Sequence record: MK295204
Source: Shigella phage vB_SdyM_006
Strand: one strand, 5' to 3'
Length of the DNA stretch: 64,000 bases
Under the pieces are notes generated by a model. It saw only the letters and a list, made by a program, of their open reading frames with translations, was not told the DNA's origin and did not search any database. The first letter of the stretch is position 1. Each line of letters begins with the position of its first letter. Positions 1,727 through 60,861 of this stretch are shown one piece after another. The position numbers were made by a program, and so were the translations under genes.

Positions 1727-1919
1727 TTAAAAATGTACCCATCCGGCTTTCCAGTCTGGTGAAGGGTTGTCACCTCTAGTTTAAACCTGCTAGTCAAGTA
1801 ATAATTGCATATCGTCCAATTATCAAAACCGTCTAGGTTATATTACACCACTTCCTAGAATACCGTCTAAGCGGACTTGATCGACGTAGATTACACCATA
1901 TACGTCTGATTGTGGAATT

Positions 1920-1994
1920 TGGAGCGATCTACGGGTATCGAACCCGTATCTTCTGGGTGGAAACCAGAAATAATAGCCATTATACTAAGATCGC
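1920..1994 (-). tRNA. tRNA-Gly (anticodon UCC)
   Basis: Perfect acceptor stem GCGATCT/AGATCGC, anticodon loop TTTCCAC, T-loop TTCGATA, CCA encoded. Confidence 0.85.
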
Positions 1995-2615
1995 ATATTT
2001 ATTAATAAATCTTCTTGCTTGGGTATGACTTAATCCTATATGTTTAGCAAATTTATTTAAGTTACCTCTTATTGAAATATCAAATGATTTTAATATTTCT
2101 AATCTATAATTAATTTCGTCTTTTGACAATGTAGAGGCATTATTAATAGAAATTTTGTTTTTAGATATATCCGAATGTCTCTTATTTTTAAAACCAAACG
2201 AATTTTTCTTTTTGCTAAAATCATATAATCCGAGTCTAAGTCTTTTCTTAAATGTATTAACTTGTTTACTTATAGTTAATTTAGATTTTGGCAATGAATT
2301 TATATAATCCCAACCACCTTCACCACCAACTTTTAAATTATATGTATTTTTGCTTTTAACAAATTTTTCTGTAACTATTTTGGCTTCATGTATAAACATG
2401 TCATACTTATTTTTATGAAATTTTAAAATAGTTTTTTCAAAATTTTCTTTGCCATATTTTTCTATGGCTTTTTTCAAAATCTTACCTGAACCAAAATATC
2501 CATCTTCTAAATCTTTGGTTTTATGAACACCTATATAAATTTTATTATTTATTTTATTTTTAATTTTGTATGTATAATAAAACATTATAGCCTTATTTAT
2601 CTTTTGGTACTCCAT
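1980..2615 (-). CDS. GIY-YIG homing endonuclease (Seg-like) embedded in the tRNA cluster
   Basis: N-terminal GIY-YIG motif (FYYTYKIKNKINNKIYIGV...GSG), basic C-terminal region; T4 segB sits in the equivalent tRNA region; 3' end overlaps tRNA-Gly by 15 nt. Confidence 0.6.
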   Translation of the reverse strand: MEYQKINKAIMFYYTYKIKNKINNKIYIGVHKTKDLEDGYFGSGKILKKAIEKYGKENFEKTILKFHKNKYDMFIHEAKIVTEKFVKSKNTYNLKVGGEGGWDYINSLPKSKLTISKQVNTFKKRLRLGLYDFSKKKNSFGFKNKRHSDISKNKISINNASTLSKDEINYRLEILKSFDISIRGNLNKFAKHIGLSHTQARRFINKYAILV

Positions 2616-2966: not shown

Positions 2967-3011
2967 TTTTCTTATCAATAACGACTAAAAATAATCGTTA
3001 TTAATCAGAAT

Positions 3012-3088
3012 TGGTACACACTACTGGATTCGAACCAGTGACCTACGGTTTAGAAGACCGTTGCTCTATCCATCTGAGCTAAGCATGC
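3012..3088 (-). tRNA. tRNA-Arg (anticodon UCU)
   Basis: D-stem GCTC/GAGC, anticodon stem ACGGT/ACCGT with loop CTTCTAA, T-loop TTCGAAT, CCA encoded; three G-U pairs in acceptor stem. Confidence 0.75.
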
Positions 3089-3089
3089 A

Positions 3090-3380
3090 TTATAAGTACT
3101 GTTTAATCAGTTCTTCGTTATTTTTAAAAAGAATAAAAATATTATCACGAACTTCAGTATCTGAGATATGCCATTTCATAGCATCAATTAAAATGTCTTT
3201 TGGGATCATATTATATAAATTATTTAGTAAAGCAATATTATTTATATCAATATCAACTTCAAATAATTCAAAAATACAACACGAAATAGAATCATAAAAA
3301 TCTTTAATGTCTATTTCATACTTAGACAAATTATTTATAAATTCTGTTTTAGCTTGTTCTGGATTATGTGCTTTAAACAT
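3090..3380 (-). CDS. hypothetical protein
   Basis: ORF in track, same strand as neighbours, no recognisable motif. Confidence 0.45.
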   Translation of the reverse strand: MFKAHNPEQAKTEFINNLSKYEIDIKDFYDSISCCIFELFEVDIDINNIALLNNLYNMIPKDILIDAMKWHISDTEVRDNIFILFKNNEELIKQYL

Positions 3381-3402
3381 TTTTATTCCTATTATTCTAA
3401 AA

Positions 3403-3477
3403 TGGCAGGCTCTGTAGGAATCGAACCCACGTCTTCGGATTTGGAATCCGGTATTCTACCGACTGAACTAAGAACCT
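3403..3477 (-). tRNA. tRNA-Trp (anticodon CCA)
   Basis: Acceptor AGGTTCT/AGAGCCT, anticodon loop TTCCAAA, T-loop TTCGATT, CCA encoded. Confidence 0.75.
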
Positions 3478-3478
3478 T

Positions 3479-3562
3479 TGGCGGGCAGTGTAGGATTCGA
3501 ACCTACGTCGTCAAATGACACGGATTAACAGTCCGCTGCTTAATCCACTCAGCCAACTACCC
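3479..3562 (-). tRNA. tRNA with GUU (Asn) anticodon but type-II architecture (13-nt variable arm)
   Basis: Acceptor GGGTAGT/ACTGCCC, discriminator G, 3-bp D-stem, anticodon stem GCGGA/TCCGT with loop CTGTTAA, variable-arm hairpin GTCATTTGAC, CCA encoded. Confidence 0.6.
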
Positions 3563-3898
3563 AATAATTTTTGCATCTTCTGAATAACTAGAAATACTAC
3601 CCCATTCTGAAGTATTAAATGAAACTTTATTTCCGTTTTTGAACTCTATAACTATATTTATATTGTCAACAGAAATCTCATTATCAGATGATTCTCTTTC
3701 TGAGGTTTTTAAATATGTATCCATAGTTTCAATAGTCACTTCTTCTGTTTGAAGAAGAGGTGAATAGTACTCAGCTAAATAAACTTTATTTACAATATCA
3801 CCAAAAATAGTTTTAGCAATATCAGTTAATTTAGTTGTTTCTTTTAATAAATGTTTCATAATATGTCCTTCACATGGAGTAGAAATTAATAATAACAC
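3557..3898 (-). CDS. hypothetical protein
   Basis: ORF in track; 3' end abuts tRNA. Confidence 0.45.
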   Translation of the reverse strand: MLLLISTPCEGHIMKHLLKETTKLTDIAKTIFGDIVNKVYLAEYYSPLLQTEEVTIETMDTYLKTSERESSDNEISVDNINIVIEFKNGNKVSFNTSEWGSISSYSEDAKIIG

Positions 3899-3922
3899 AA
3901 ATAATATGAAAGCATTTCTGTT

Positions 3923-4279
3923 TTAATATTTGTGTTTTGTTTTTCTAACTAATGTAACCTGAAAAGGTGTTTCCATACAATATGTATGGACAACAGAATC
4001 TTTGTCACGATTATGATAATATGGATAATAAGCTACACGATAACCTTCACGCGTAAATCCTAATAGAACGCCAACACTTAGTCCTTTACCGCCACCTATA
4101 GATGAGTAAGAGACAATATCACCAGGACTAATATGATTACCGATCATATCGTGTTTAGGTGTCCCTTGCGTCAACTTGTGGTGCATTTCGTATAGTTCAG
4201 GGTCTGTCTTTAAAATTTCAGAAAAACCTAATTGGTTCTCTGCCTTAAACAGAGAAAAAGCTTCTTGAATTGTCATCAC
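3923..4279 (-). CDS. hypothetical protein
   Basis: ORF in track; a 43-codon upstream ORF (4276..4406) overlaps its start in an ATGA arrangement. Confidence 0.5.
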   Translation of the reverse strand: MMTIQEAFSLFKAENQLGFSEILKTDPELYEMHHKLTQGTPKHDMIGNHISPGDIVSYSSIGGGKGLSVGVLLGFTREGYRVAYYPYYHNRDKDSVVHTYCMETPFQVTLVRKTKHKY

Positions 4280-4416
4280 CAGCCCTCGTCTTCGCGTTCT
4301 TGATAATTATAATAAGTATCACGTTCTTCGCCGTTAGATTCTTTTTTGGATTGATTTTCAAAAAAACGTTGTAGTTCTCTTGCTTCTCGGATTTCTTTTT
4401 CTGTCATAGTATATCC

Positions 4417-4791
4417 TTACTCTATCTCTTTATGATCGCCCACTTTATATTTTTCTAAAGCTTCATCTTTAGATTTAGCTTCAATTTCGTATAAAATAGG
4501 AGTGTACCATTCGCCACAAAAAACCGAATCGTTTGAGTCTATTAAATCAGCATGTTTATCAATATACTCTTTGATATCGTCTGGGCTATCTAAAAATTCT
4601 AGACACTCTTCTTCGTATCCAACCAATTCAATAAAATGTTCTAATACTGCAATATAGTATTTTTTATTAAGGTGACTAGTATTTAATCTAAATACTCTTC
4701 CTGTTGGAGGAACAACAGGTCGTATTTCCATAAGACCTTTATCAATCATTTCTTTAATGATTGGAAGATCTTGGATTTCTGGCCGTTGCAT
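4417..4791 (-). CDS. hypothetical protein
   Basis: ORF in track. Confidence 0.5.
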   Translation of the reverse strand: MQRPEIQDLPIIKEMIDKGLMEIRPVVPPTGRVFRLNTSHLNKKYYIAVLEHFIELVGYEEECLEFLDSPDDIKEYIDKHADLIDSNDSVFCGEWYTPILYEIEAKSKDEALEKYKVGDHKEIE

Positions 4792-4809
4792 AATATTCCT
4801 TAAATTTAA

Positions 4810-5097
4810 TCACGAAATTGATTTTACAAAATTCGGAAAAAGATTTTTAATAATAAAAATATGGATTATTGCAGAAATACCTGCACCCATAATTAGCACT
4901 ACAAATCCTAAAATAAGCCCAGCCATCATAGCATATTGCATATCTTCAGGAACACTCATAGCCCGTTCGTATTCAGAAAAGAATTTCTTTTGGACTAACC
5001 AATCATAAATAAACCAAAAATATAACCCGCATGAGCTTCCTACTAAAGTCAGCCAATAAATAAACCCAACAAAATTTTTAGTGCTCTCATTTTTCAT
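4810..5097 (-). CDS. hypothetical membrane protein
   Basis: ORF in track; two or three hydrophobic helices. Confidence 0.5.
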   Translation of the reverse strand: MKNESTKNFVGFIYWLTLVGSSCGLYFWFIYDWLVQKKFFSEYERAMSVPEDMQYAMMAGLILGFVVLIMGAGISAIIHIFIIKNLFPNFVKSIS

Positions 5098-5129
5098 AAT
5101 CTATTTCTCACAATTTTTGTTAACGAAAC

Positions 5130-5342
5130 TTAATAACCAAGTTCTTCAATAAAACCATCTAAGGACCAATTGTATTTCATTTCTGATTTACTGTAAACAA
5201 ATATTTTAGAGTTTTCAATTTTATCATAATCTTCTGGATTAACGTTGTTTGATAATGGGCACACTAATTTTAAGCATTCAATATTAGATGCAAATCCAAC
5301 AAATAAAAAATCAAGGTCTTTTAAAGAATAGATTTTAATCAT
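5130..5342 (-). CDS. hypothetical protein
   Basis: ORF in track. Confidence 0.4.
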   Translation of the reverse strand: MIKIYSLKDLDFLFVGFASNIECLKLVCPLSNNVNPEDYDKIENSKIFVYSKSEMKYNWSLDGFIEELGY

Positions 5343-5774
5343 TTAACTAATCTGCTTCAAAGGTTGAGTGATAATAGGTTTATCAACAAAATACACTTTC
5401 ATTTCATCGAAAACACGAATAAAATCATAATCATATTGTACAGGCTCACCAAGAATAGTTTGTAAAGCTTTTAATAAATTACTACTTGGAAAATATTTGT
5501 CTACAAATTCTTGAGAAATTTTTGATTCTGAAAGTAATTTATCTAAATTTGTTCTAATACCATCTTCAATGTCATAAAAATCTTCATTACAAAGATCTTC
5601 GCCACCATGATAACTTGGCTTAAAGATCATAAGAACATTTGAGAACATAGTCACTTCTTCTAGAGTGAGGCCATCAAAATACTGGGTAGAAAAATCATCT
5701 GCGTCATTTTCCCAAGTAGTAACAGAAATTAAATATCCTGATTTAACATTTAAGCCATTAATTAATTCTTTCAT
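5343..5774 (-). CDS. hypothetical protein
   Basis: ORF in track, abuts the preceding ORF. Confidence 0.5.
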   Translation of the reverse strand: MKELINGLNVKSGYLISVTTWENDADDFSTQYFDGLTLEEVTMFSNVLMIFKPSYHGGEDLCNEDFYDIEDGIRTNLDKLLSESKISQEFVDKYFPSSNLLKALQTILGEPVQYDYDFIRVFDEMKVYFVDKPIITQPLKQIS

Positions 5775-5844
5775 TTTATATACCGTGTTGTTTAAAAGAA
5801 TTTAATCATATACAAGAATATTTTTATGCGATTAAAAACCAAAA

Positions 5845-5868
5845 AAGAGACCGAAGTCTCTTTTTAAT
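5845..5868. terminator. bidirectional intrinsic terminator (hairpin AGAGACCGAAGTCTCT with A-run and T-run flanks)
   Basis: GC-rich 6-bp stem, CGAA loop, flanking A/T tracts. Confidence 0.55.
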
Positions 5869-5882
5869 TAGTTAGTATGGTT

Positions 5883-6161
5883 TTATAAAGTGCTCTTTAA
5901 AGCCTTTTCTATATCTTTTGAATTAAGATTAACTTCTGTTTTGGCCACTATAGCTTTAGAAATATTAAATTTCTTAAATTTTGAAGAATTTAAAATAGTT
6001 TTTAAATCTTTAGCTTCTATGACATCTACAACGTCATTTTCGTTTTTACTTCCAATAATTACAGCACGATAGCCTTCAATTTCATCATATTTAGAAAATC
6101 TATATTGGAATTCTACACTAAAATCTTTAGATTCATTCAAAAATTCATCAAATGTTTTCAT
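5883..6161 (-). CDS. hypothetical protein
   Basis: ORF in track; preceded by a sigma70-like promoter. Confidence 0.5.
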   Translation of the reverse strand: MKTFDEFLNESKDFSVEFQYRFSKYDEIEGYRAVIIGSKNENDVVDVIEAKDLKTILNSSKFKKFNISKAIVAKTEVNLNSKDIEKALKSTL

Positions 6162-6191
6162 TTTTAATCTCTGGTGTTTAAATTTATAAGT

Positions 6192-6220
6192 ATTATATCA
6201 CAATTTTTATGATTGTAAAC
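6192..6220 (-). promoter_or_regulatory. sigma70-like (T4 early-type) promoter: -35 GTTTAC, 17-bp spacer, TGn-TATAAT
   Basis: Read on minus strand: GTTTAC-aatcataaaaattgtga-TATAAT. Confidence 0.5.
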
Positions 6221-6222
6221 TG

Positions 6223-6495
6223 TTATTTTAAATATTGGACCATTTTATCTACCATATCATCATCTCTGACATTAAACAAATAATCTACTTCTTTGCTATT
6301 TTTCAGTATTTGCCATTCACCTGCACGATGTCGAACAAAAGTATATGCTCCTGATTTGAATGAATCACTACTAATTTTTTTGACATGTTTTATCTTAAGG
6401 CCTTCAACCTCGGCCCATGCCACAATTTGTTGGGCTGGGGTTAATCCATAATTTTTACGCTTAACTTCTGTTATGAATTCATTAAATGTTTTCAT
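6223..6495 (-). CDS. hypothetical protein
   Basis: ORF in track; first 21 nt nearly identical to the start of ORF 5883..6161. Confidence 0.5.
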   Translation of the reverse strand: MKTFNEFITEVKRKNYGLTPAQQIVAWAEVEGLKIKHVKKISSDSFKSGAYTFVRHRAGEWQILKNSKEVDYLFNVRDDDMVDKMVQYLK

Positions 6496-6526
6496 TTTTC
6501 AATTATTCCTCTTTAGTGGTTTAAAC

Positions 6527-6555
6527 ATACTATCGTCTTAAATTACGTATGTAAA

Positions 6556-6556
<1 letters not shown>
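6527..6556 (-). promoter_or_regulatory. possible sigma70-like promoter (-35 GTTTAC, 18-bp spacer, -10 TAGTAT)
   Basis: Read on minus strand upstream of ORF 6223..6495. Confidence 0.35.
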
Positions 6557-7232
<676 letters not shown>

Positions 7233-7252
<20 letters not shown>

Positions 7253-7892
7253 GTTTTACCTTTTTTTGAAAAATTTCTAAAGAATCATTATTTTCAATAA
7301 CAATATCACCTTCTAAAATAGGGAGGTCTTGTTCAGTGATATGGTCATCATTTGTAATTGTATTTTTTTTAATATGGATAATTTTACCTTTATTGTTTCG
7401 AACAGTATCAATTTCATGTACTTGTCGACAATCAGTAATAATAACAACATGACTTCTAGGGATTAATTTATCAATGTAATTGAAAACCATATCTACCCAG
7501 TACATTTTATCCATGCTTACAACAATATCAGTTCCAAGGGTCTGTAGGAACTTTCGAATTGTAAATTCATTATTATTTATAATAGGGATTTCTGGTATAT
7601 CACCTTTAAGACCATGACTTTTTAAATATCGAATACAGCGAATCATATAATCTTCGAATTGTTCTTGTGTCATATTTAATTTATATTCGCGATCAATGCC
7701 ATGTCCGTCAAAGTCATCATAGGTCAATTCAAACCCATTATAGTTTTGCCAATTTATAGACAAAGTGAATTTTAGATAATCGGCAAAAGCCATAGTGTGT
7801 GAAGTAATATTATTTTCTTCACAAATATCTTCAATAAATTTAGCACATGTATCTTTTCCGGAACGTTTTTTACCGGTCAAACCAATAATCAT
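7233..7892 (-). CDS. 1: deoxynucleoside monophosphate kinase (gp1)
   Basis: P-loop GLTGKKRSGKDT at N-terminus; synteny 57A-1-3. Confidence 0.75.
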
Positions 7893-7894
7893 AA

Positions 7895-8473
7895 TTACCT
7901 CATAGAAGGATGTAAGTTTCTACCTATTGAAATAGCGGAGTCTTGAATAGACGGACGAGATACTATAATTTTATTATTTTTCTCTATTTCGAAATATTTA
8001 AAGTTAAATACAACAGTCATATAAACCGCTGGGTCACCTTCGTTATCATAACCATATTCTATATCAGATATAGAAGAAGGCCAAGCGCCATAATAGTTAA
8101 ATGATATTAAGGATTCTTTTTTATCATTATCTAATATATGTAATATCAGTCCTTCAGGTTGTCCAGATGGGTCCCAGGCGGTATTATTATGGGTGATATA
8201 GTTATTAATTGATAACATCCATTTGTATATCTCTACGTAAGAGAGGAGTTCCTCGTCTAATAAAACTTTAGCTACTAATTCTCCATGTTCAAGTGTAGAA
8301 CCTGGTAAATTAGATCTACCAAGTCCTTTTGTTCCTAAAGGAACTTCAGTAATAGGTATTCTAACATCAGGAAGTGTAAAGCTTTGGACATTTAATGTAA
8401 ACGCTTCAGTTAATTTACTATCTGGTATATCAATTCTAAAATTTGTAGAATTTGTTTGATTAAAAAAACTCAT
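7895..8473 (-). CDS. 3: tail completion / sheath stabiliser protein (gp3-like)
   Basis: Position between gene 1 and gene 2, size 192 aa. Confidence 0.6.
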   Translation of the reverse strand: MSFFNQTNSTNFRIDIPDSKLTEAFTLNVQSFTLPDVRIPITEVPLGTKGLGRSNLPGSTLEHGELVAKVLLDEELLSYVEIYKWMLSINNYITHNNTAWDPSGQPEGLILHILDNDKKESLISFNYYGAWPSSISDIEYGYDNEGDPAVYMTVVFNFKYFEIEKNNKIIVSRPSIQDSAISIGRNLHPSMR

Positions 8474-8490
8474 ATTAGTTTCCTTGTTTT

Positions 8491-8656
8491 ATTAATTTAT
8501 TAAAAGTATAGTATATTCTATATAACTATTAAGTAATAAATTAATAACTATATGTTACTATTTCTAAAGAAATCTGGAGCTGCGCTCCAGAATTTTTATT
8601 ATTTTATTAAGTTCTTTATATATTATATATAACTATTAAGTAATAAATTAATAACT
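8491..8656. repeat. copy A of a ~166-bp element: two 31-bp direct repeats (8519-8549, 8626-8656) flanking a GC hairpin CTGGAGC-TGC-GCTCCAG (8574-8590); inverted copy at 53705-53871
   Basis: Direct comparison: reverse complement of 53705-53871 matches 8491-8656 except for the 3-nt hairpin loop. Confidence 0.9.
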
Positions 8657-8664
8657 GTACGTTA

Positions 8665-9483
8665 TTATCTTTTCCAAACTTTAGAAGCTGCAAATCTTGA
8701 ACCTTGAGACATAAATTGCTGAGTAGGCATAAAAATAATATTAGACCAATCTTGTGGTTTAACTTCTATTATAGGGCCTTTAATATGTCCAGGTAAATAA
8801 GCTTTTATCATCTGATCAGAACCATGCATTCCTCTAACACTACTCCAATTAATTTTTAATTTAGTTTTAGAAGAAATGTTACTTGTAGAAGAAAATCTTT
8901 TTAATAGTTCTTCTAAAAATGCTTGTCTGGCTTTAGGTGGTATATAATGAAGATTTAATCCATATAATAATTGATTTCCGTTTCCAGCAGTTTTAGCACC
9001 TAAGAAAATGATCAATGGAAACTTATCCCAATACGGGAGAGTATCTTTATTTTTGGCATCATAAACATAAGTATAAATTTTACCGATTTCTGGTACTTTA
9101 GTTGTTTTTGTTCTTACACCAGTTTTTATAGTTTCTTTAAACCATTTTATAGATTTATTATTAACAGCTGCGCCTTCATTTCTTATTTTTTTCTTTAAAG
9201 TACTTCTAAAGTCATTTACAATTGCAAGTTCACGTTCTCTACGTGATAATTTATGTTTAGATTTACCTTTAATAGCTTCGACTTCTAATGCTTCTTTTAT
9301 TTTATCAGAATACCGACTCATTGCTGATGTGAATGTGCTATATTTTATTCCTTTATATTCAGCAAACTTTTTAGAAGACACAGTTCTTCTAACTTTAGCA
9401 AATTCAACACCTAATTTAATCCAATCTTGTGCTGTTTTAGGTAAAGACATTTCTTCTTCAATTTCAAATATCATCCTTTCCAC
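8665..9483 (-). CDS. 2: DNA end protector protein (gp2-like)
   Basis: Synteny 3-2-4, size 272 aa (T4 gp2 274 aa). Confidence 0.7.
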   Translation of the reverse strand: MERMIFEIEEEMSLPKTAQDWIKLGVEFAKVRRTVSSKKFAEYKGIKYSTFTSAMSRYSDKIKEALEVEAIKGKSKHKLSRRERELAIVNDFRSTLKKKIRNEGAAVNNKSIKWFKETIKTGVRTKTTKVPEIGKIYTYVYDAKNKDTLPYWDKFPLIIFLGAKTAGNGNQLLYGLNLHYIPPKARQAFLEELLKRFSSTSNISSKTKLKINWSSVRGMHGSDQMIKAYLPGHIKGPIIEVKPQDWSNIIFMPTQQFMSQGSRFAASKVWKR

Positions 9484-9920
9484 CCCATGGTCTTTAAAGA
9501 CCTTTCTGTCACTATTTTAAATTTGATATTCATTTTATCCGCTAATTTTTGGGCCGCTTTCCATTTATCACTATTAACCTGGAATGTGTATATTTCTTCC
9601 ATAAATCTTTTTTTAGCCTTAACAGTAATATTAGCAGGTGGTCTAGGTTGTTGGGTTTCTTTAAATGGTTTTACTTCAAATAGAAATTCTTGTCCACTTT
9701 TGAATTTAGCCCAAAAATCCATAAAATATCTTCTTTTTTTGCCATCTGCATTACTAAAGTATGGAATTACGACTTCTTCAGAATTCCACCTAATACAATC
9801 TGGGTTATTATCAAGCCACTTCATAAAAAAGTGTTCCCAAGATGACCTATATGTAATTTTTCTCCAATCACCTTTATATTTGTCTTTATGAACTGGCAAG
9901 TATTTTCCTTTATAAGCCAT
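9471..9920 (-). CDS. 4: head completion protein (gp4-like)
   Basis: Close N-terminal match to remembered T4 gp4 (MAY.GK...KITYRS.WE.FF..WLD.NP...IPYF.NA.GKKRRYFMD). Confidence 0.8.
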   Translation of the reverse strand: MAYKGKYLPVHKDKYKGDWRKITYRSSWEHFFMKWLDNNPDCIRWNSEEVVIPYFSNADGKKRRYFMDFWAKFKSGQEFLFEVKPFKETQQPRPPANITVKAKKRFMEEIYTFQVNSDKWKAAQKLADKMNIKFKIVTERSLKTMGWKG

Positions 9921-9935
9921 AAGTCCACTCCTTTA

Positions 9936-9943
9936 TAAATACA
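9936..9943 (+). promoter_or_regulatory. T4-type late promoter TATAAATA (for gene 53 operon)
   Basis: Exact TATAAATA 29 nt upstream of gene 53 start. Confidence 0.6.
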
Positions 9944-9953
9944 TATAATAATA

Positions 9954-9961
9954 TTTATAAT
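9954..9961 (-). promoter_or_regulatory. T4-type late promoter TATAAATA on minus strand (for gene 4-2-3)
   Basis: Exact TATAAATA on minus strand about 34 nt upstream of gene 4 start; divergent from the plus-strand late promoter. Confidence 0.6.
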
Positions 9962-9971
9962 AGGGGGTTTT

Positions 9972-10523
9972 ATGATTTTTTCCTTTTTTGATCCTGTAGA
10001 ATATAGAGGAAAACTAACAACCAATATATTCAGAAACTATAAAGTTTATATAAAAAGAGTTTTATCTAATTATAAACTTAAAACATACTATATTTCTGGC
10101 TCACCGAGACCAGAAGAACTTGCTAATGCATTATATGGTAATCCACAACTATATTGGGTCTTATTAATGATCAATGACAATTATGACCCATTCCATGGCT
10201 GGATTAAAGGACAAGAAGCCTCATATCAGAGCGCTATACAACGCTATGAGAACGCAGGAGGACAACAAGTACTATACCATATAGATAATAATGGTGAACG
10301 TTATTATAACCTAGTAGAAGATCCTGATAACCCAGGCCTTTGGTACGATAAAGGCGATAAAGATATGGAACACTTGCAATATAATGGGCCTTTAGCTGCT
10401 ATAGATATTCTTGAAGATTCAATTCTTAAAAACGAAGAACGACGAGAAATAAAAATAATTGACCCTAAAGAAATTCAATCTTTTATTAGTGCAATTATTA
10501 GAGAGATGGAAAAAACACTATGA
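9972..10523 (+). CDS. 53: baseplate wedge protein gp53
   Basis: Strong match to remembered T4 gp53 (FFDP.EY...IFRNYK.Y.KR...Y.L.TYYI.GSPRPEELANA.YGNPQLYWVLLM.NDNYDP). Confidence 0.85.
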   Translation: MIFSFFDPVEYRGKLTTNIFRNYKVYIKRVLSNYKLKTYYISGSPRPEELANALYGNPQLYWVLLMINDNYDPFHGWIKGQEASYQSAIQRYENAGGQQVLYHIDNNGERYYNLVEDPDNPGLWYDKGDKDMEHLQYNGPLAAIDILEDSILKNEERREIKIIDPKEIQSFISAIIREMEKTL

Positions 10524-12250
10524 ATATCCAAAATTCTTATATCCAACCATTTTTTGGTGTTGTTGAAGATCGAATGGACCCTAAGAAATTAGGACGTGTC
10601 AGAGTTAGAATATATGGAGATCACCCTTTTTCTAAAACTAAAGGTGACGTGGCTGGTTTAGAAACTGAAGATTTATTATGGTTCCAAGTATTATTACCAG
10701 CAACATCTGCTACTGAATCCGGTGTTGGTAATTCTCCAACTGGTATATTAGAAGGCTCTTCAGTTTTTGGCCTATATTTAGACAAATATAAAACTTCAGG
10801 AATTGTTTTAGGGACTTGGGCTGGGATAAGAACAGAAATGCCTAACTACACAGAAGGTTTTTCCGACCCAAATCAACAGTACCCTACTAAACTTGGGAAT
10901 GATTTAAATGATTTATCTCTAGGTGGAAGAATAGGTAAAGAATCTATTGTTAACGTAATTCAAAATGATAATAGAGAAACTGCACCGAACCCATCAAATA
11001 TACCTGCAGGCGAAGAACCTGAAAATAACAGCCCAGAATTGACAATAGAAAAAATGTTACAACGTGACGAAGGCTTACGTTTACGTTGGTACCCAGATAA
11101 TGGATATGCATCTATTGGTATAGGACATTTAATTAAAGCCCAGAAAACATCAGACCCAGATTTAATTAATAAATGGATTTCAGAACTTGTCGGAAGAAAA
11201 GTAACAAACGGAACCATAACAATGGATGAATGTATGTCCATTTTTAAATCTGATATTAAAAAAGTTAAAGATGGAATAGTTAAGCACCCTACTATTGGTC
11301 CGATCTACAAAAAATGTAATGCTTCTAGGAAAATGGCTTTAGAGAACATGGCATATCAAATGGGACTAGGTGGATTAGCTAAATTTAAAAAAACTTTGAG
11401 ATACATGGAAGAAGAAAAATGGGAAGACGCTTATATAAATCTCCAACAATCACTTTGGTTTAGACAAACTAAAGGACGAGCATCAAGGGTTTCTTTGATT
11501 ATTCGTAATGGTAATTTAGAATCATACGGCGAAAAGACCCCTAGTGCCGCTAGGGCGTTCTCTTTACAAAAGAATATAAACATAGAACCTGAAGATCCTT
11601 TTGTCCCTAGCGACTCTAGGGTTATGTTTGAAGAACCTAAAACAGATTATAATAGCCAATACCCATATAATAAAACCTTTGGAACAGAATCAGGTATGAT
11701 TCAAGAATTTGACGATACACCTGGTGCCGAACGTTATAGACTAACACATACTTCAGGAACATACCAAGAAATTTCTCCAGATGGAAGAAATGTACAAAAA
11801 ATAATTGGGGACAATTATAAAATAGTCCAACAAGACGACCATATATTAGTCCAAGGCGATGTTAAACTTGTTATTGGCGGTAATTCTAATGTTTACATTA
11901 TGGGGTCATTAAACCAAACAATTGATGGAAGTATAAATCAAACTGTTAGAGGAAATGTTGTTCAACATGTAGAAGGTAATGTTAAAGCGACAATAGACCA
12001 AACGGCCGATATTCTTGTTAAAGAAGAAGCTATGATAACAGTTGAAAAAGATTTAACAGTTAATGCAAATCAAAATGCGGAAATTAATGTTAAAGAAAAA
12101 GCCACGGTTAATGCAGAAAATATTTCTGTTAACGCAGAGAAGACTATGAAGTTTAAAGCTGAAGATGTTGATTTTAGTGCAGTTAAAACATTTTCTGTTG
12201 ATTCTGGTGTTCTTACTAAAATTACAGGTGCTAATGTACAGGTGGGATAA
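10520..12250 (+). CDS. 5: baseplate central spike / tail lysozyme gp5
   Basis: N-terminal GVVEDRMDPKKLGRVRVRIYG, central lysozyme-like region, C-terminal repeated beta-helix pattern; 576 aa (T4 gp5 575 aa). Confidence 0.85.
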   Translation: MNIQNSYIQPFFGVVEDRMDPKKLGRVRVRIYGDHPFSKTKGDVAGLETEDLLWFQVLLPATSATESGVGNSPTGILEGSSVFGLYLDKYKTSGIVLGTWAGIRTEMPNYTEGFSDPNQQYPTKLGNDLNDLSLGGRIGKESIVNVIQNDNRETAPNPSNIPAGEEPENNSPELTIEKMLQRDEGLRLRWYPDNGYASIGIGHLIKAQKTSDPDLINKWISELVGRKVTNGTITMDECMSIFKSDIKKVKDGIVKHPTIGPIYKKCNASRKMALENMAYQMGLGGLAKFKKTLRYMEEEKWEDAYINLQQSLWFRQTKGRASRVSLIIRNGNLESYGEKTPSAARAFSLQKNINIEPEDPFVPSDSRVMFEEPKTDYNSQYPYNKTFGTESGMIQEFDDTPGAERYRLTHTSGTYQEISPDGRNVQKIIGDNYKIVQQDDHILVQGDVKLVIGGNSNVYIMGSLNQTIDGSINQTVRGNVVQHVEGNVKATIDQTADILVKEEAMITVEKDLTVNANQNAEINVKEKATVNAENISVNAEKTMKFKAEDVDFSAVKTFSVDSGVLTKITGANVQVG

Positions 12251-14313
12251 TGAATTATTACGATAAAATAGATGAAGTTGTCTCAAACTTCGCCCATCCA
12301 TGTGAAGGTGAAGTGCCAGATGGGTTCTATAGACGTGTTAAGTGGGAACTGTATAATCCATCAAAAGAAAATAAAGGCCCAGGAAATGGCGAAGAGTGGG
12401 ACACAGAGATAATTAAAATAGGGACTAGATTATACGATCAAAACCCTTTTGGGCATAAATCTGAAGAATTTCCAGAACCGCCAGTAGAAGGTGAAGGAGA
12501 AAAATGTAAATTCTGGTCTAAAAAAATAGGTGTTTGTTTTACAACTCAAAAAGAATTATCTGATTATGTAGAATCTATTGGGTCCAAACTTTTACCTGGT
12601 AATGATTGGTATGGTGCGGATTTATCAAAATCACATTTATTTAAAACAGCAAATGAATATAACATGTATCGTATAGAAAATGCCGGCGGGACTTGGACTA
12701 AATTAGGTCCTTCTATAGATAAACGAACTATGTTAATGGTTGATAAAGATTATAATATTTTAATTAATTATGATGGGGTTGAAGGGTCTAGGTCTGCTTA
12801 CTTAAAACACTATGAAGATAAACCTTGTACTTATGTTGGTATTCGCTTAAATCTTGATATTGATTTAAGTGTCCCGGGTATACCAGAATCAGAACCACCT
12901 ACAATAGGAAGTTTACCACCAGAATTACCAGCATTAATATTTGCTGCTAGAAGTTTACCCGCAATAGGTTGTATTCCATTTAAGGCTAAATTTCCTTATA
13001 ATGGGTTATCACAAGCAATAGTTGAAGCATGGAATGAATCAAGGCGTTCATTTAAATTAATGTGGGCCAATATTCCAGGACTACCTGAAGGTGAAGGTTC
13101 AATTTGGAGTACAATGTATTCTGGCGTGTCTATTGCTATGGAAGAACTTGGTAATGCGGCTTTAAGTATGTGCCAATACGTGCAACAAATGGCATGGAAC
13201 GCATTTAAAGAAATTATTTCGCAGGCTCTTAATATAGTTGGTGCTGGTTGGGATTTATTAAAATCATTTATCCCTAAAGTTACTATTCTTGGAATAACTT
13301 TTGATATTGAAGATATTTGTACTTCTGGTGATGGTTTACAAAAATTAAAAGATGCTTTTTCTAATTTTGATACAGAAAAAATAATAGAAAGTATATATGC
13401 ATTTATTGGAAGTGCTTACGAATATTCTGTAGAATATGTAAAAGTATTTTCTCGTGACTTAATAGATGCGTTAACAGATTTATATGATTATTTGTGGTAT
13501 GTGTTGATGACAGCAGGTGTTGCTTTATGTAAGACCCTTGTTAATTTAGCAGAAATCTGGTCTATCCCACCATGGATTCCAAACCCTTTATGGAATGTAG
13601 TTATTGCTGTAAAAGAGTTAATGAAACAAATAGAACCTTTAGATATGATTCTTAAAGGTGGATTTCCTGGTTTTACGGCATCAGATTTGTATTATATGGT
13701 TGAACGAGAAGTTAAAAAAGTTATAGACGAAACTTATGCAAAAATAGAATCATTTAAAAACCAAGCCATAGCTTTATGGGAACAAGTAAAAGAAGCTAAA
13801 GATAATTGGCAGCGAGAATCAATAGGATTTAAACAATATCTTAAAGGCATGTATGGTGCTGTAACTGAAGAGCTCACAAAACAAAAAGAAGCCTTAGTTA
13901 AACAGGCTAAAGATATATACGAATCATTATTGGCAAAATATGAAGCATTAAATATAAATATAGATACACTCAAAGCTTCTGTTTCTAATGTCTTAGAACT
14001 TGCATTAAATGAATTAAGACAGCTTCCTTTAGTGGCTCAAATAGAACAACTTTTATCATTAATAGGTTCATCTCTAGATGAAATGATAACAACTATTAAA
14101 AATGGTATAACTGGCGCACAAACGTTATACAAAAATTTTACAGATGGAAGCAGATCATTAAAAGATATATGTAAGTACATATTCAGCCAAATATCTACAT
14201 TATCATTGAGTAAAGTAACACAATGGATTAATAAATTATTGAGCATATTTGGATTAGAAATAAAGTTTCCTGAACTAGAATTGTGTATACCATACGTAAA
14301 ATACGAGGAATAA
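12250..14313 (+). CDS. large hypothetical protein at the spike-tip position (where T4 has genes 5.1-5.4)
   Basis: 687-aa ORF whose start overlaps the gp5 stop (TAATG) and whose stop abuts gene 6; Cys/His N-terminus, hydrophobic helices near residues 400-450, coiled-coil C-terminal third. Confidence 0.7.
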   Translation: MNYYDKIDEVVSNFAHPCEGEVPDGFYRRVKWELYNPSKENKGPGNGEEWDTEIIKIGTRLYDQNPFGHKSEEFPEPPVEGEGEKCKFWSKKIGVCFTTQKELSDYVESIGSKLLPGNDWYGADLSKSHLFKTANEYNMYRIENAGGTWTKLGPSIDKRTMLMVDKDYNILINYDGVEGSRSAYLKHYEDKPCTYVGIRLNLDIDLSVPGIPESEPPTIGSLPPELPALIFAARSLPAIGCIPFKAKFPYNGLSQAIVEAWNESRRSFKLMWANIPGLPEGEGSIWSTMYSGVSIAMEELGNAALSMCQYVQQMAWNAFKEIISQALNIVGAGWDLLKSFIPKVTILGITFDIEDICTSGDGLQKLKDAFSNFDTEKIIESIYAFIGSAYEYSVEYVKVFSRDLIDALTDLYDYLWYVLMTAGVALCKTLVNLAEIWSIPPWIPNPLWNVVIAVKELMKQIEPLDMILKGGFPGFTASDLYYMVEREVKKVIDETYAKIESFKNQAIALWEQVKEAKDNWQRESIGFKQYLKGMYGAVTEELTKQKEALVKQAKDIYESLLAKYEALNINIDTLKASVSNVLELALNELRQLPLVAQIEQLLSLIGSSLDEMITTIKNGITGAQTLYKNFTDGSRSLKDICKYIFSQISTLSLSKVTQWINKLLSIFGLEIKFPELELCIPYVKYEE

Positions 14314-14314
14314 A

Positions 14315-26700: not shown

Positions 26701-26703
26701 TTT

Positions 26704-26727
26704 AAGGACCTTCGGGTCCTTTTTTTG
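26704..26727 (+). terminator. intrinsic terminator (GGACC-TTCG-GGTCC followed by T7)
   Basis: Hairpin plus TTTTTTT after wac stop. Confidence 0.6.
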
Positions 26728-41371: not shown

Positions 41372-41383
41372 GCTAACCTCAAA

Positions 41384-41404
41384 AAGGACCCGAAGGTCCT
41401 TTAA
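41384..41404 (-). terminator. intrinsic terminator on minus strand (GGACC-CGAA-GGTCC; T-run on minus)
   Basis: Hairpin followed by TTTTTGAG on minus strand. Confidence 0.5.
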
Positions 41405-41405
41405 T

Positions 41406-43156: not shown

Positions 43157-43165
43157 AATAATTCC

Positions 43166-46115: not shown

Positions 46116-46200
46116 ATTATTCTCACAGTTGCGAATTGATGATGTGTATACTATATTATAAAATAGTGTTTGTAAACATCTAAAATAATTTAAAATAAAT

Positions 46201-46229: not shown

Positions 46230-46271
46230 ATACATATTGAAACGAAACATGAAAAACAAATGGAGTATATT

Positions 46272-52733: not shown

Positions 52734-53318
52734 ATGTTTGAAATAACATGTAACGACATAACATACAACGCTAGATATTTCACTCTAGACGAATACGAGG
52801 ACGTTCTTAATAAAATAACTGATAATAATATTAAAGACGCCATTAGTGGGCTCTTAATTGATTGTATAGACTCCTACGATACAAACTTGCCTAAACACTA
52901 TGCAGAATGTATTTTTCTTAAATTATGGGCTCACAGTTTAGGTGGAGTAACTAAAGAACTAAATGATATTTTTGTTAATTTTAATTATATAGAAACACCT
53001 AAAGAAAAAGGATTTATTTACAAATTAGATGGATTGAGTCTCAAAATGAGATATCCAAAATTATTTGAAGACTCTGATAAATTAGAAATGGTCATAAATT
53101 GTATTGACTCAGTATTATTAGAAGACCAAACAGAAATTAAAGCTTCAGAGCTTTCTTCAGATGATTTAAACGTTTTATATTCATACTTGACGAAAGACGT
53201 AATTTTTTCGTTAAGAGACGAATTACTTAGACCTAAACCGTATATCGCTTTTCCTGTTGATGACGAAATTAAAACAATAGAAGGGTTTAAAAATTTATTA
53301 GAGGTGATAGATGAGTAA
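52734..53318 (+). CDS. 26: baseplate hub subunit gp26
   Basis: 194 aa (T4 208 aa), synteny. Confidence 0.6.
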   Translation: MFEITCNDITYNARYFTLDEYEDVLNKITDNNIKDAISGLLIDCIDSYDTNLPKHYAECIFLKLWAHSLGGVTKELNDIFVNFNYIETPKEKGFIYKLDGLSLKMRYPKLFEDSDKLEMVINCIDSVLLEDQTEIKASELSSDDLNVLYSYLTKDVIFSLRDELLRPKPYIAFPVDDEIKTIEGFKNLLEVIDE

Positions 53319-53697
53319 AATGAATGTTTTATATTCTGACTTAGACCCTAAAATGGAAAAAGGCTGGGATAAAGACCTGCATAAAGTCGTAGGAGATAGG
53401 GCTGTCAAAAATTCTATTCTAGGAATAATTAGTACTAGGAAAGGGTCTAGACCCTTTGACCCAGAATTTGGGTGTAATATAACAGACCAATTATTCGAAA
53501 ATATGAGTCCATTAATAGAAGACACTATAGAGCGATCTATAGTTTCGGCTATTAAAAATTATGAGCCAAGAGTACAAAGATTAAAAGTTTCTGTTACTGC
53601 ATTGTATGATTCAAATTCTATAGTTGTAGATATTATTTTTTCTATTGTAGATAATCCAGACACATTAGAACAGATAAAAGTTCAATTATCAAAATAG
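53311..53697 (+). CDS. 25: baseplate wedge protein gp25
   Basis: 128 aa (T4 132 aa); gpW/gp25-like pattern (ILGIISTRKGSRPFDPEFGC). Confidence 0.75.
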   Translation: MSKMNVLYSDLDPKMEKGWDKDLHKVVGDRAVKNSILGIISTRKGSRPFDPEFGCNITDQLFENMSPLIEDTIERSIVSAIKNYEPRVQRLKVSVTALYDSNSIVVDIIFSIVDNPDTLEQIKVQLSK

Positions 53698-53704
53698 TTT
53701 ACTA

Positions 53705-53871
53705 TAGTTATTAATTTATTACTTAATAGTTATATATAATATATAAAGAACTTAATAAAATAATAAAAATTCTGGAGCTGCGCTCCAGATTTCTTTAGAA
53801 ATAGTAACATATAGTTATTAATTTATTACTTAATAGTTATATAGAATATACTATACTTTTAATAAATTAAT
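53705..53871. repeat. copy B (inverted) of the ~166-bp element; hairpin CTGGAGC-TGC-GCTCCAG at 53771-53787
   Basis: Reverse complement identical to 8491-8656 apart from the 3-nt hairpin loop. Confidence 0.9.
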
Positions 53872-53936
53872 TTACTAGAGTTACTATTAATAGGCTATTA
53901 TAATAAAATGGTTATAATGAATCATTTGGAGGAACT

Positions 53937-54347
53937 ATGAATTTAGAAGAATTACAAACAATGTTATCAGAAGATTTAAGAATTGATCCATTAAAACTTC
54001 AATATGAAGCTGCAAATAATCCAACATTATATGGAAAATGGTTAAAAATTTATTCTGATATAAAGAAAGGAATTATTTCTTATGAAGCTAATAAGAAAAA
54101 ACTTTTAAAACAAAGATTAGACCATTATACTGGACGTGGTGATGAAGTGTGTATGGACTTATATGAAAAATCAGAACTTAAAACTGTTATTGCAGCTGAC
54201 CCAGAAATTTTGAAAACACAAACATCTGTGGAATATAGAACATTATTATTGGATTTTGCATCAAAAGCTTTAGATGCTATTAAAGCCCGTGGATTTAGTA
54301 TTAAGCACATTCTAGAATGTAGACAATTTGAGGCAGGAACAAAATGA
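53937..54347 (+). CDS. uvsY: recombination mediator UvsY
   Basis: Strong match to remembered T4 UvsY (KLQYEAANN, YSGRGD/YTGRGD, LLDF.S.ALDAIK.RGF.IKHI). Confidence 0.9.
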   Translation: MNLEELQTMLSEDLRIDPLKLQYEAANNPTLYGKWLKIYSDIKKGIISYEANKKKLLKQRLDHYTGRGDEVCMDLYEKSELKTVIAADPEILKTQTSVEYRTLLLDFASKALDAIKARGFSIKHILECRQFEAGTK

Positions 54348-60521: not shown

Positions 60522-60534
60522 CCAAAAAGGAGAC

Positions 60535-60842: not shown

Positions 60843-60861
60843 ATGTTATTGTGGCTTTTTA

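What the first reader, a model, noticed from the sequence alone, without database searches (positions are those of the whole stretch)
8491..8656. Two near-identical ~166-bp inverted-repeat elements 45 kb apart (8491-8656 and 53705-53871)
The reverse complement of 53705-53871 matches 8491-8656 base for base except for the 3-nt hairpin loop. Each copy has two 31-bp direct repeats (tatataactattaagtaataaattaataact) flanking a perfect 7-bp GC hairpin. Copy A lies between late genes 3 and 2; copy B lies between gene 25 and uvsY. This degree of identity in intergenic DNA implies recent transposition/duplication or ongoing homogenisation. In a recombination-proficient T4-like phage, inverted repeats of this size should also promote inversion of the 45-kb segment between them. 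The architecture recalls the mobile promoter/stem-loop cassettes (PeSL-type) reported in T4-type hyperplastic regions, or a MITE-like element.
Basis: seen in the sequence. Interest (0 to 1): 0.8.

Follow-up and report, generated by a model that had tools for sequence, protein, structure and literature searches.

The report
Repeated intergenic terminator cassettes, Proteus phage
Two almost identical 166-bp stretches between essential genes of a T4-like Proteus phage belong to a previously undescribed four-site family of "repeat unit + terminator hairpin" cassettes. The phage's own recombination keeps the copies alike, and what the repeat unit does is still unknown.

Summary
Window 8491-8656 equals the reverse complement of 53706-53871 at 163 of 166 bases. 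The only difference is the 3-nt hairpin loop, which is flipped (GCA vs TGC).

The window is a Bragavirus, 98-99% identical to Proteus phage phiP4-3. Both copies have the same orientation relative to local transcription (gp2→gp3 and gp25→uvsY).

They are not a lone pair. Whole genomes carry four such sites, the other two at gp35→gp36 and upstream of gp55. Each has two ~66-bp AT-rich units plus a GC hairpin, in all five sequenced Bragaviruses.

Copies within a genome are more alike (87-100%) than the same site in different lineages (79-82%). That is concerted evolution, not recent transposition.

A unit core (TATTACTTAAY-NN-TTATATAKAA) and the unit-hairpin-unit layout before gp3 also occur in Gualtarvirus, whose flanking genes are only ~70% identical. 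The unit is therefore probably functional.

The hairpin covaries and looks like a bidirectional intrinsic terminator. The units fail tests for canonical early, middle and late promoters, and for MITEs.

My best reading is a PeSL-like transcription punctuation cassette with an unidentified cis-element. Inversion of the 45-kb segment is plausible but untested; all five genomes are collinear.

The parts
8491..8656 (-). Cassette copy A, between gp2 (stop) and gp3 (start). The sense orientation is the minus strand.
8598..8659 (-). Copy A, unit b. It comes first in the direction of transcription, right after the gp2 stop. Invariant core at 8626-8656, followed by an A-rich tail that runs into the hairpin.
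8573..8591 (.). Copy A hairpin: 7-8 bp GC-rich stem with a 3-nt loop. It looks like a terminator on both strands, with the better T-tract (AATTTTTATTATTTT) on the + (antisense) side.
8491..8556 (-). Copy A, unit a. It comes second in the direction of transcription. Core at 8519-8549; contains TTATTACTTAAT-N13-TATACT. Its 3' end runs straight into the gp3 ribosome-binding site and ATG (8473).
53706..53871 (+). Cassette copy B, between gp25 (stop) and uvsY. The sense orientation is the plus strand.
53703..53764 (+). Copy B, unit b (core 53706-53736).
53771..53789 (.). Copy B hairpin. The loop is flipped relative to copy A and to the orthologous copy in phiP4-3.
53806..53871 (+). Copy B, unit a (core 53813-53843).
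53889..53919 (+). T4-type MotA middle-promoter-like site (AATAGGCTATTA-N13-TATAAT) between cassette B and the uvsY ribosome-binding site. It is the positional counterpart of T4 PuvsY/oriF, so uvsY does not depend on the cassette for a promoter.
7895..8473 (-). gp3 (tail completion) gene, downstream of copy A.
8665..9474 (-). gp2 (DNA end protector) gene, upstream of copy A.
53311..53697 (+). gp25 baseplate wedge gene, upstream of copy B.
53937..54347 (+). uvsY gene, downstream of copy B.

Best explanation
Copies A and B are two members of a four-site family of intergenic cassettes in Bragavirus genomes.

Each cassette sits directly behind the stop codon of the upstream gene and points the same way as transcription. 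It consists of two ~66-bp, almost pure A+T units and one GC-rich hairpin flanked by an A-tract and a T-tract.

The hairpin is an intrinsic terminator, or an RNA 3'-end hairpin, that can act in both directions. It is weaker in the sense direction, so late transcripts can still reach gp3.

The unit carries a conserved cis-element, TATTACTTAAY-NN-TTATATAKAA. I infer that it is a non-canonical promoter-like or factor-binding site that restarts or tunes transcription of the downstream gene. In unit a the motif is followed by TATACT, about 36 nt before the gp3 ATG.

The near-identity of A and B is maintained by repeated gene conversion between the dispersed copies, carried out by the phage's own homologous recombination. 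The 3-nt difference is an inversion of the hairpin loop, produced by strand switching within the palindrome.

Shown: the anatomy, orientation, copy number, concerted evolution, hairpin covariation and conservation across two genera. Inferred: terminator activity, promoter or binding function, and the conversion mechanism.
For: - Orientation. A (minus strand) and B (plus strand) align collinearly from the upstream stop codon to the downstream ATG. All four sites in phiP4-3 are co-oriented with their flanking genes.
- Family size. There are exactly 4 loci with 2 cores each in phiP4-3 and in Pm5461, and the sites are present in SJ_PmiM and PM2 as well.
- Hairpin. It looks like a terminator on both strands, against ~0 expected in shuffles. 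Stem sequences differ between sites and genera while pairing is kept; 6 of 8 pairs show changes on both sides. The Pm5461 depositors annotated the site C and D hairpins as rho-independent terminators.
- Read-through. No TATAAATA late promoter lies between the gp4 late promoter (9952-9959, minus strand) and gp3, so late gp3 expression must pass the hairpin or start in the unit.
- Conservation. The core is invariant in 32 of 32 full units. The Rgz1 (Gualtarvirus) gp2→gp3 spacer has the same unit-hairpin-unit-RBS layout, with 25 of 25 core bases identical, although the whole gp2-gp3 stretch (genes plus spacer) is only ~70% identical.
- Concerted evolution. Identity is 97-100% (window, phiP4-3) or 87.5% (PM2, Pm5461) between A and B in one genome, against 79-82% for the same site in different lineages. 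The PM2/Pm5461 lineage carries a relic of the gp3 leader (AACTAAGGAAACTAT) before the hairpin at both sites.
- Loop flips. The flipped state appears separately in window copy B and in Pm5461 copy A.
- Promoter resemblance. Unit a matches sigma-70 at 9 of 12 positions (TTAATA-16-TATACT). It scores 8.1 bits on a weight matrix (PWM) built from T4 middle promoters, with an ACTT-type MotA box like T4 P46.
Against: - The units are not canonical promoters of any T4 class. They lack the phage's early consensus GTTTAC-N16-19-TAnnnT. The 8.1-bit middle-promoter score is ordinary: 274 sites in the genome score at least 8 bits. They contain no TATAAATA.
- The sigma-70 match is no better than shuffled sequence gives.
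- At sites B, C and D a separate promoter-like sequence lies between the cassette and the gene: 15.6 bits at B, TATAAATA at C, 10.3 bits at D.
- At sites C and D both units lie upstream of the hairpin.
- The TATACT element is not conserved in Gualtarvirus.
- There are no expression data for any of these phages.
Confidence: 0.45

Rival explanations
1. Functionally neutral or selfish repeats. The hairpins are ordinary operon-end terminators. The AT-rich units are recombination-spread 'junk', like PeSLs, whose identity only reflects frequent gene conversion in a highly recombinogenic phage.
For: Strong concerted evolution and exchange between sites. A tandem 49-bp duplication at site B in phiP4-3 shows slippage or unequal crossing-over. 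The units fail all three promoter-class tests. A mosaic boundary between the window and phiP4-3 lies at the left edge of copy A.
Against: The core is identical at 25 of 25 bases between Bragavirus and the Rgz1 gp2→gp3 spacer, although the whole gp2-gp3 stretch is ~70% identical. All 33 units are co-oriented with transcription. The cassettes are kept at the same four junctions in every genome, although dispersed 166-bp repeats should generate lethal deletions and inversions.
Confidence: 0.2
2. Replication-origin or DNA-unwinding modules. The cassettes would be easily melted regions used for R-loop or recombination-primed initiation, analogous to T4 ori(uvsY)/oriF, which has a middle promoter plus an AT-rich unwinding element.
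For: Copy B lies in the same intergenic region as T4 oriF. T4 oriF and oriG need a MotA promoter plus an AT-rich unwinding element of no fixed sequence (PMC3016281). The eight units are the eight least stable 60-bp duplex windows of the whole 168-kb phiP4-3 genome: -54 to -56 kcal/mol against a mean of -72.1 (sd 4.2), with the next window at -59.0. They are also the top four in the window.
Against: The T4-like uvsY promoter lies downstream of the cassette and fires away from it. T4 oriF and oriG are not stability extremes by the same measure (94th and 88th percentile), so the test does not predict known origins. T4 ori(34) RNA is antisense to gene 34, whereas site C is sense. No T4 origin is annotated at gene 55.
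Confidence: 0.12
3. A small RNA gene. A promoter in the unit would transcribe ~20-35 nt of AU-rich RNA that ends at the hairpin terminator.
For: Unit b always directly precedes the hairpin. The distance from the TAKAAW motif to the hairpin is 26-42 nt in both genera. The segment AACTTAATAA between them is conserved.
Against: No Rfam family matches. The T-tract on the sense side is weak or absent at several sites, including site D and the Gualtarvirus sites. Promoter activity is unproven.
Confidence: 0.08
4. A mobile element (MITE or transposon), or a programmed inversion switch that flips the 45-kb late-gene segment.
For: The repeats are inverted, 166 bp long and separated by 45,049 bp. Because both copies are sense-oriented, a crossover between them would keep every gene correctly oriented behind a cassette (inference).
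Against: No terminal inverted repeats, no target-site duplication and no transposase or invertase ORF in or next to the element. The sites are fixed in all genomes. All five genomes and T4 show the same, uninverted order.
Confidence: 0.03

Closest known systems
PeSL / PmSL cassettes of T4-type phages (Arbiol et al. 2010, PMC2839356; Comeau et al. 2014, PMC4122927)
   Same: A composite of a stem-loop terminator and an adjacent AT-rich promoter-like segment that ends in a ribosome-binding site and ATG (site A). Several copies per genome act as substrates for homologous recombination. The orientation follows the genes.
   Different: The units lack the early consensus (TTTACW-N17-TAYWAT; in this phage GTTTAC...) and have only a marginal MotA-type match. 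There are two units per hairpin, sometimes both upstream of it. The identity is much longer (166 bp). The sites lie between conserved essential late or middle genes, not next to variable ORFans in hyperplastic regions. The cassettes are fixed at the same four junctions in every genome. This phage has separate, canonical PeSL-like cassettes elsewhere.
T4 ori(uvsY)/oriF and ori(34)/oriG (middle-mode promoter plus AT-rich unwinding element)
   Same: Copy B occupies the gp25-uvsY spacer where T4 has PuvsY/oriF. The DNA is extremely AT-rich and easily melted. Kreuzer and Alberts found, by my recollection of their work, that the T4 origins are also recombination hot spots.
   Different: The T4 origins share no sequence motif (PMC3016281). 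Here four sites share one. The T4-like uvsY promoter is outside and downstream of the cassette. No replication evidence exists.
Bidirectional intrinsic (rho-independent) terminators
   Same: A GC-rich stem of 6-8 bp with a 3-4 nt loop, an A-tract upstream and a T-tract downstream. Pairing is kept through compensatory changes.
   Different: The terminator is embedded between long repeated units. The T-tract is consistently better on the antisense side, although the flanking genes are co-oriented.
Small hairpin-loop inversions (quasi-palindrome template switching; known from T4 rII mutagenesis and from chloroplast spacers). Cited from my own knowledge.
   Same: The loop of a perfect short palindrome is reverse-complemented while the stem and flanks stay unchanged, and this has happened in separate lineages.
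   Different: None of note. This explains only the 3-nt difference between the copies.

Membership tests
PeSL (promoter-early stem-loop) | Stem-loop that acts as a transcription terminator, placed just upstream of the promoter | tested here: met
   Terminator-like hairpins on both strands at both copies, ~0 expected in shuffles. Covariation in 6 of 8 pairs. Unit a follows the hairpin at sites A and B. Terminator activity itself was not measured.
PeSL (promoter-early stem-loop) | Strong sigma-70-like early promoter (TTGACA/TTTACW-N17-TAYWAT) | tested here: not met
   The phage's 34 early-type sites all carry GTTTAC-N16-19-TAnnnT; the units do not. The best sigma-70 match is 9 of 12, no better than shuffles.
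PeSL (promoter-early stem-loop) | Ribosome-binding site and start codon at the 3' end of the cassette | tested here: inconclusive
   Met at site A (gp3). At B, C and D another promoter-like segment lies between the cassette and the gene.
PeSL (promoter-early stem-loop) | Located in hyperplastic regions next to variable ORFs and indels | tested here: not met
   The sites lie between gp2/gp3, gp25/uvsY, gp35/gp36 and orf/gp55, and are conserved in all five genomes.
PeSL (promoter-early stem-loop) | Copies recombine with each other | tested here: met
   Concerted evolution and transfer of the gp3-leader relic between sites. This is sequence inference; no recombination products were observed.
PmSL / T4 MotA-dependent middle promoter | MotA box (wwwTGCTTtA) 12±1 bp upstream of a good -10 (TAnnnT) | tested here: inconclusive
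   Unit a has TATTACTTAA-N13-TATACT and scores 8.1 bits on a matrix built from 26 T4 promoters. 274 genome sites score at least 8, and likely true sites score 14-19. Unit b scores 4.7 bits. An ACTT core is known from T4 P46 (PMC2988021).
T4 late promoter | TATAAATA at -10 | tested here: not met
   No TATAAATA lies inside either copy; the window has 21, all elsewhere.
MITE / transposable element | Terminal inverted repeats and a target-site duplication | tested here: not met
   The element ends are direct repeats. The flanks at A (…TAACGTAC / AAAACAAGG…) and B (…TTTACTAT / TTTACTAGAG…) share no duplication. No ORF of 20 aa or more with any meaning lies inside.
T4-type R-loop origin (oriF/oriG) | Middle-mode promoter followed downstream by an AT-rich unwinding element | tested here: inconclusive
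   The promoter-like site (15.6 bits) lies downstream of cassette B and points away from it. The units are the least stable DNA in the genome, but that measure does not single out T4 oriF or oriG.
T4-type R-loop origin (oriF/oriG) | Supports initiation of replication | not testable with these tools
   This needs marker-frequency analysis or plasmid replication assays.
Known RNA families (Rfam 15) | Covariance-model match | tested here: not met
   No hit with E-value up to 1 in window 8200-8900, both strands.

The most novel reading that the evidence does not exclude
The cassettes could be a new, lineage-specific class of cis-element shared by Bragavirus and Gualtarvirus. One version: a common recognition site for an unidentified phage factor that co-regulates gp3/gp1, uvsY, gp55 and the distal tail-fibre genes. 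Another version: a shared unwinding or initiation module marking the phage's replication or recombination start sites. T4 origins have no common motif, so that would be new. In addition, the inverted A/B pair may produce two coexisting genome isomers that differ by inversion of the 45-kb structural-gene block.
Probability: 0.15. Interest if true: 0.75.

Novelty: new variant of a known kind. Interest (0 to 1): 0.5.

Why it matters
T4-like phages recombine at very high rates and need only short patches of homology (under 50 bp, PMC2839356). Four dispersed 140-220-bp near-identical repeats inside the essential core should therefore be costly. The two direct pairs would delete 35-38 kb, and the inverted pairs would flip large blocks.

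The cassettes are nevertheless kept at the same junctions in every Bragavirus. Their core survives in another genus. Both facts argue for a function that published annotations have missed.

If the units prove to be a promoter class or a factor-binding site, they define a small regulon linking recombination (uvsY), the late sigma factor (gp55), nucleotide supply (gp1, downstream of gp3) and tail assembly. If they are unwinding or initiation sites, they would be the first origins in a T4-like phage to share a sequence.

Either way, they offer a clean natural system for measuring gene conversion, hairpin-loop inversion and large inversions in a lytic phage. They also matter for engineering Proteus therapeutic phages, because repeats destabilise constructs.

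Tried and rejected
- Canonical promoter classes. I built a weight matrix from 26 mapped T4 middle promoters (coordinates from PMC2988021). I also collected the phage's own early sites and all TATAAATA sites. The units do not fit any class convincingly. The scans did find separate promoters downstream of sites B, C and D.
- Rfam search: no hit.
- ORFs inside the element: only 25-26 aa low-complexity frames.
- MITE or transposon features: absent.
- Scan of IMG/VR with the 21-nt core: only phiP4-3 and Pm5461.
- Scan of JGI metagenomes with the same core: eight unrelated chance hits and no Bragavirus contig. Inversion isomers and further diversity could therefore not be examined.
- Duplex-stability profile as an origin predictor. 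It is striking for the units, but the control on T4 oriF and oriG failed, so I do not use it as evidence for an origin.
- Mosaic breakpoints. One boundary between the window and phiP4-3 falls at the edge of copy A. With about 15 boundaries in 60 kb this has roughly a 0.1 chance of being coincidence, and SJ_PmiM shows no breakpoint at either copy.
- Resemblance of the core to the RegA RNA operator, DnaA boxes, IHF sites and alternative sigma promoters. I checked these by eye from memory only. None fits in sequence or position.
- Literature. The Pm5461 and MP1 genome papers do not mention the repeats.

Full report
OBSERVATION

Window 8491-8656 and the reverse complement of 53706-53871 are identical except for the three loop bases of a central hairpin. 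The repeat finder extends the pair to 169 nt at 98% complementarity, with 45,043 nt between the arms.

None is expected in shuffled sequence.

The hairpin CTGGAGC-NNN-GCTCCAG occurs only at 8574-8590 and 53772-53788, and both read TGC in the loop on the + strand. Because the flanks are inverted, the loop is reverse-complemented relative to the element. It is not randomly mutated.

The internal direct repeat is really a ~66-75-bp unit, of which 31 bp are perfect (D2).

IDENTITY AND CONTEXT

The window is a T4-like Proteus phage of the genus Bragavirus. It is 97.9-99.1% identical to phiP4-3 over most of its length.

Copy A lies between the gp2 (DNA end protector) and gp3 (tail completion) homologues, both on the minus strand. 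Copy B lies between gp25 and uvsY, both on the plus strand.

When A is read on the minus strand and B on the plus strand, the two spacers align collinearly from the upstream stop codon to the downstream start codon. The two copies are inverted in the genome but have the same orientation relative to transcription.

In that 'sense' direction the layout is: stop codon, unit b, A-tract, hairpin, unit a, then the gene. At site A the ribosome-binding site and ATG of gp3 follow directly. At site B a degenerate third unit and a further promoter-like segment come before uvsY.

A FOUR-SITE FAMILY, NOT A PAIR

Blast of the element against the assembled phiP4-3 genome finds two further sites outside the window. 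One lies between gp35 and gp36 (phiP4-3 9814-9984). The other lies between an ORF and gp55, the late sigma factor (128710-128853).

At those two sites the order is unit a, unit b, hairpin, then a separate promoter. At gp36 that promoter is a TATAAATA late promoter. At gp55 it is a 10.3-bit middle-promoter-like site.

All four sites are co-oriented with their genes. An exact scan of IMG/VR with a 21-nt core finds only phiP4-3 and Pm5461, each with four loci and two cores per locus. SJ_PmiM was checked at all four sites and PM2 at sites A and B; both carry the cassettes there.

In 33 units from five genomes the segment TAATTTATTACTTAATAGTTATATA is invariant in all 32 full-length units.

HISTORY

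Two sequence variants of the A/B cassette exist. The window and phiP4-3 have unit b before the hairpin. PM2 and Pm5461 instead have a unit-a-like copy followed by a relic of the gp3 leader (AACTAAGGAAACTAT), and they have it at both sites.

Identity between A and B within a genome is 97-100% (window, phiP4-3) or 87.5% (PM2, Pm5461). The same site compared across the two lineages is only 79-82% identical. SJ_PmiM is a mosaic, with the PM2-type variant at A and the phiP4-3-type variant at B.

This is the signature of concerted evolution by gene conversion between dispersed copies. It is not the signature of a recent insertion.

The loop is GCA in most copies, TGC in window copy B and in Pm5461 copy A, and ACA in SJ_PmiM copy A. 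The flipped state therefore appears separately in the two lineages. Small-palindrome loop inversion by template switching explains this (mechanism cited from my own knowledge).

phiP4-3 also has a 49-bp tandem duplication spanning the gp25 stop and the start of the cassette. This is another sign of slippage or unequal exchange at these repeats.

CONSERVATION BEYOND THE GENUS

Gualtarvirus phages of Providencia and Morganella carry related modules at the same junctions.
- Before uvsY (PSTRCR_121, Rgz1): unit, hairpin CTGGAGC-TAC-GCTCCAG, then a 16.4-bit MotA-type promoter.
- Before gp55 (PSTRCR_127): unit, then hairpin.
- Between gp2 and gp3 (Rgz1, MP1): unit, hairpin, unit. In Rgz1 the ribosome-binding site and ATG follow directly; MP1 has a second hairpin first.

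The second Rgz1 unit shares 25 of 25 bases (TTTATTACTTAATAGTTATATAGAA) with Bragavirus, although the whole gp2-gp3 stretch (genes plus spacer) is only ~70% identical. The consensus across the two genera is TATTACTTAAY-NN-TTATATAKAA.

The hairpin stems differ: CTGGAGC, CTGGGAGC, CAAGGAGC, CTGGGGA, CTGGGCC and CTGAAC. Pairing is always kept, and 6 of 8 aligned pairs show changes on both sides.

So the hairpin is selected for its structure and the unit core for its sequence. The unit-hairpin-unit layout before gp3 is older than Bragavirus. Copy B in Bragavirus appears to have been converted to the layout of copy A.

WHAT THE PARTS MAY DO

The hairpin looks like a terminator on both strands. Its T-tract is consistently better on the antisense side (AATTTTTATTATTTT). 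On the sense side it is weak (TTTCTTT) or absent, as at site D and several Gualtarvirus sites.

No late promoter lies between the gp4 late promoter (9952-9959, minus strand) and gp3. Late gp3 expression therefore needs read-through of the hairpin or initiation in unit a. A leaky sense terminator fits that requirement.

I tested the units against the three T4 promoter classes.
- Early. The phage's own early promoters are GTTTAC-N16-19-TAnnnT, often right after a terminator, which is the PeSL arrangement. The units lack this.
- Middle. A weight matrix from 26 mapped T4 middle promoters recovers plausible sites in phiP4-3 with a plus-strand bias. These include a 15.6-bit site between cassette B and uvsY (window 53889-53919), which is the positional counterpart of T4 PuvsY/oriF. 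Unit a (TATTACTTAA-N13-TATACT, with an ACTT core as in T4 P46) scores only 8.1 bits, and 274 genome sites reach 8 bits. Unit b scores 4.7 bits.
- Late. No TATAAATA is present.

The unit is therefore a conserved, oriented cis-element of unknown class. Several points favour a promoter-like or factor-binding role:
- its position ~36 nt upstream of the gp3 ATG;
- its duplication together with the gp3 leader;
- its sequence relationship to the true uvsY middle promoter of Gualtarvirus (TTTACTTAATAGTATAT);
- in T4, middle promoters serve uvsY, gene 55 and gene 1, which lies just downstream of gene 3.

None of this proves such a role.

AN UNEXPECTED PHYSICAL PROPERTY

By nearest-neighbour free energy, the eight units are the eight least stable 60-bp windows in the whole 168-kb phiP4-3 genome. 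They give -54 to -56 kcal/mol against a mean of -72.1 (sd 4.2), and the next window is -59.0. They are also the top four in the window.

This observation, and the position of copy B in the spacer where T4 has oriF, keeps an origin or unwinding-element reading alive. Three points count against it. T4 oriF and oriG are not extremes by the same measure. The uvsY promoter points away from the cassette. The ori(34) primer RNA is antisense to gene 34, while site C is sense.

INVERSION

A crossover between A and B would invert 45 kb. Because both copies are sense-oriented, every gene would still sit behind a cassette in the correct polarity, so the isomer might be viable (inference).

T4-type recombination needs less than 50 bp of homology (PMC2839356), so such events should occur. 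However, all five genomes and T4 show the same junctions. No additional Bragavirus contigs exist in the metagenome collection. The prediction therefore remains untested.

The direct pairs (A with D, B with C) would delete 35-38 kb of essential genes. That is a cost, and it argues that the cassettes are retained for a reason.

COMPARISON AND VERDICT

The closest known things are the PeSL and PmSL composite terminator/promoter cassettes of T4-type phages (PMC2839356, PMC4122927). The logic is shared: a stem-loop, a promoter-like AT-rich segment, a ribosome-binding site, several recombining copies.

Two defining features fail. The units are not strong early promoters, and the sites are not in hyperplastic regions. 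The architecture is also different: two long units per hairpin, fixed at core-gene junctions, with 166-bp identity. The phage has ordinary PeSL-like cassettes elsewhere.

The genome papers for Pm5461 and MP1 do not describe these repeats.

I rate this a new variant of a known kind and of moderate interest (0.5). The family, its concerted evolution and its conservation across two genera are solid. The function of the unit is open.

Noticed in passing
window 46201-46229 (+), 60814-60842 (-), 61136-61164 (-); repeats D3/I5/I6 at 46199-46255, 60788-60844, 61110-61165: Three copies of a ~57-bp canonical early-promoter cassette (GTTTACTTTTGCTGT...TATTATATACATATTGAAAC), 84-96% identical. At least one directly follows a terminator hairpin (GAGCCGAAAGGCTC TTTTTT). 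These are true PeSL-type cassettes and form a family distinct from the finding.
   Followed up: partly
window 8357-8387 (-), inside the 5' part of gp3 (phiP4-3 93375-93405): A strong T4-type middle-promoter-like site (AAAGCTTTAC-N13-TAGAAT, 15.9 bits in phiP4-3) lies 90 nt into gp3. It could drive gp1 (dNMP kinase). Unlike in T4, gp1 here follows gp3 with no spacer.
   Followed up: partly
window 4000-18000, 42500-46000, 47500-48000 and 61500-62000, versus 18000-42000: Divergence from phiP4-3 is patchy: blocks at 2-10% alternate with blocks that are nearly identical. This shows recent mosaic recombination among Bragaviruses. One boundary (8% falling to below 0.5%) lies at 8408-8487, the left edge of cassette A.
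   Followed up: partly
phiP4-3 locus L002 1789-1837 (gp25 3' end / start of cassette B); absent from the window: A 49-bp tandem duplication (TTCAATTATCAAAATAGTTTACTATAGTTATTAATTTATTACTTAA) spans the gp25 stop codon and the first part of the unit.
   Followed up: no
window 26699-26724 / 41381-41406, and 5838-5870 / 60521-60553: Two further families of short GC-rich terminator hairpins (AAGGACC-TTCG-GGTCCTT and GAGAC-CGAA-GTCTC) recur at distant sites, some in inverted orientation.
   Followed up: no
window 1727-2596 and 2967-4031: These stretches have no blastn match in phiP4-3, so they are indels or replacements. They lie in the tRNA / small-ORF region next to the gp1-gp3 block, which behaves as a hyperplastic region.
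   Followed up: no
window 8487-8668 and 53692-53871; phiP4-3 sites at 9.8 kb and 128.7 kb: The cassette units are the least thermodynamically stable duplex DNA in the window and in the whole phiP4-3 genome, more than 4 sd below the mean for 60-bp windows.
   Followed up: yes
window 9934-9941 (+) / 9952-9959 (-), and 52709-52716 (+) / 52705-52712 (-): Back-to-back TATAAATA late promoters sit in the divergent spacers gp4|gp53 and gp51|gp26. Each lies about 1-1.3 kb from a cassette, so each cassette sits near a switch in transcription strand.
   Followed up: no
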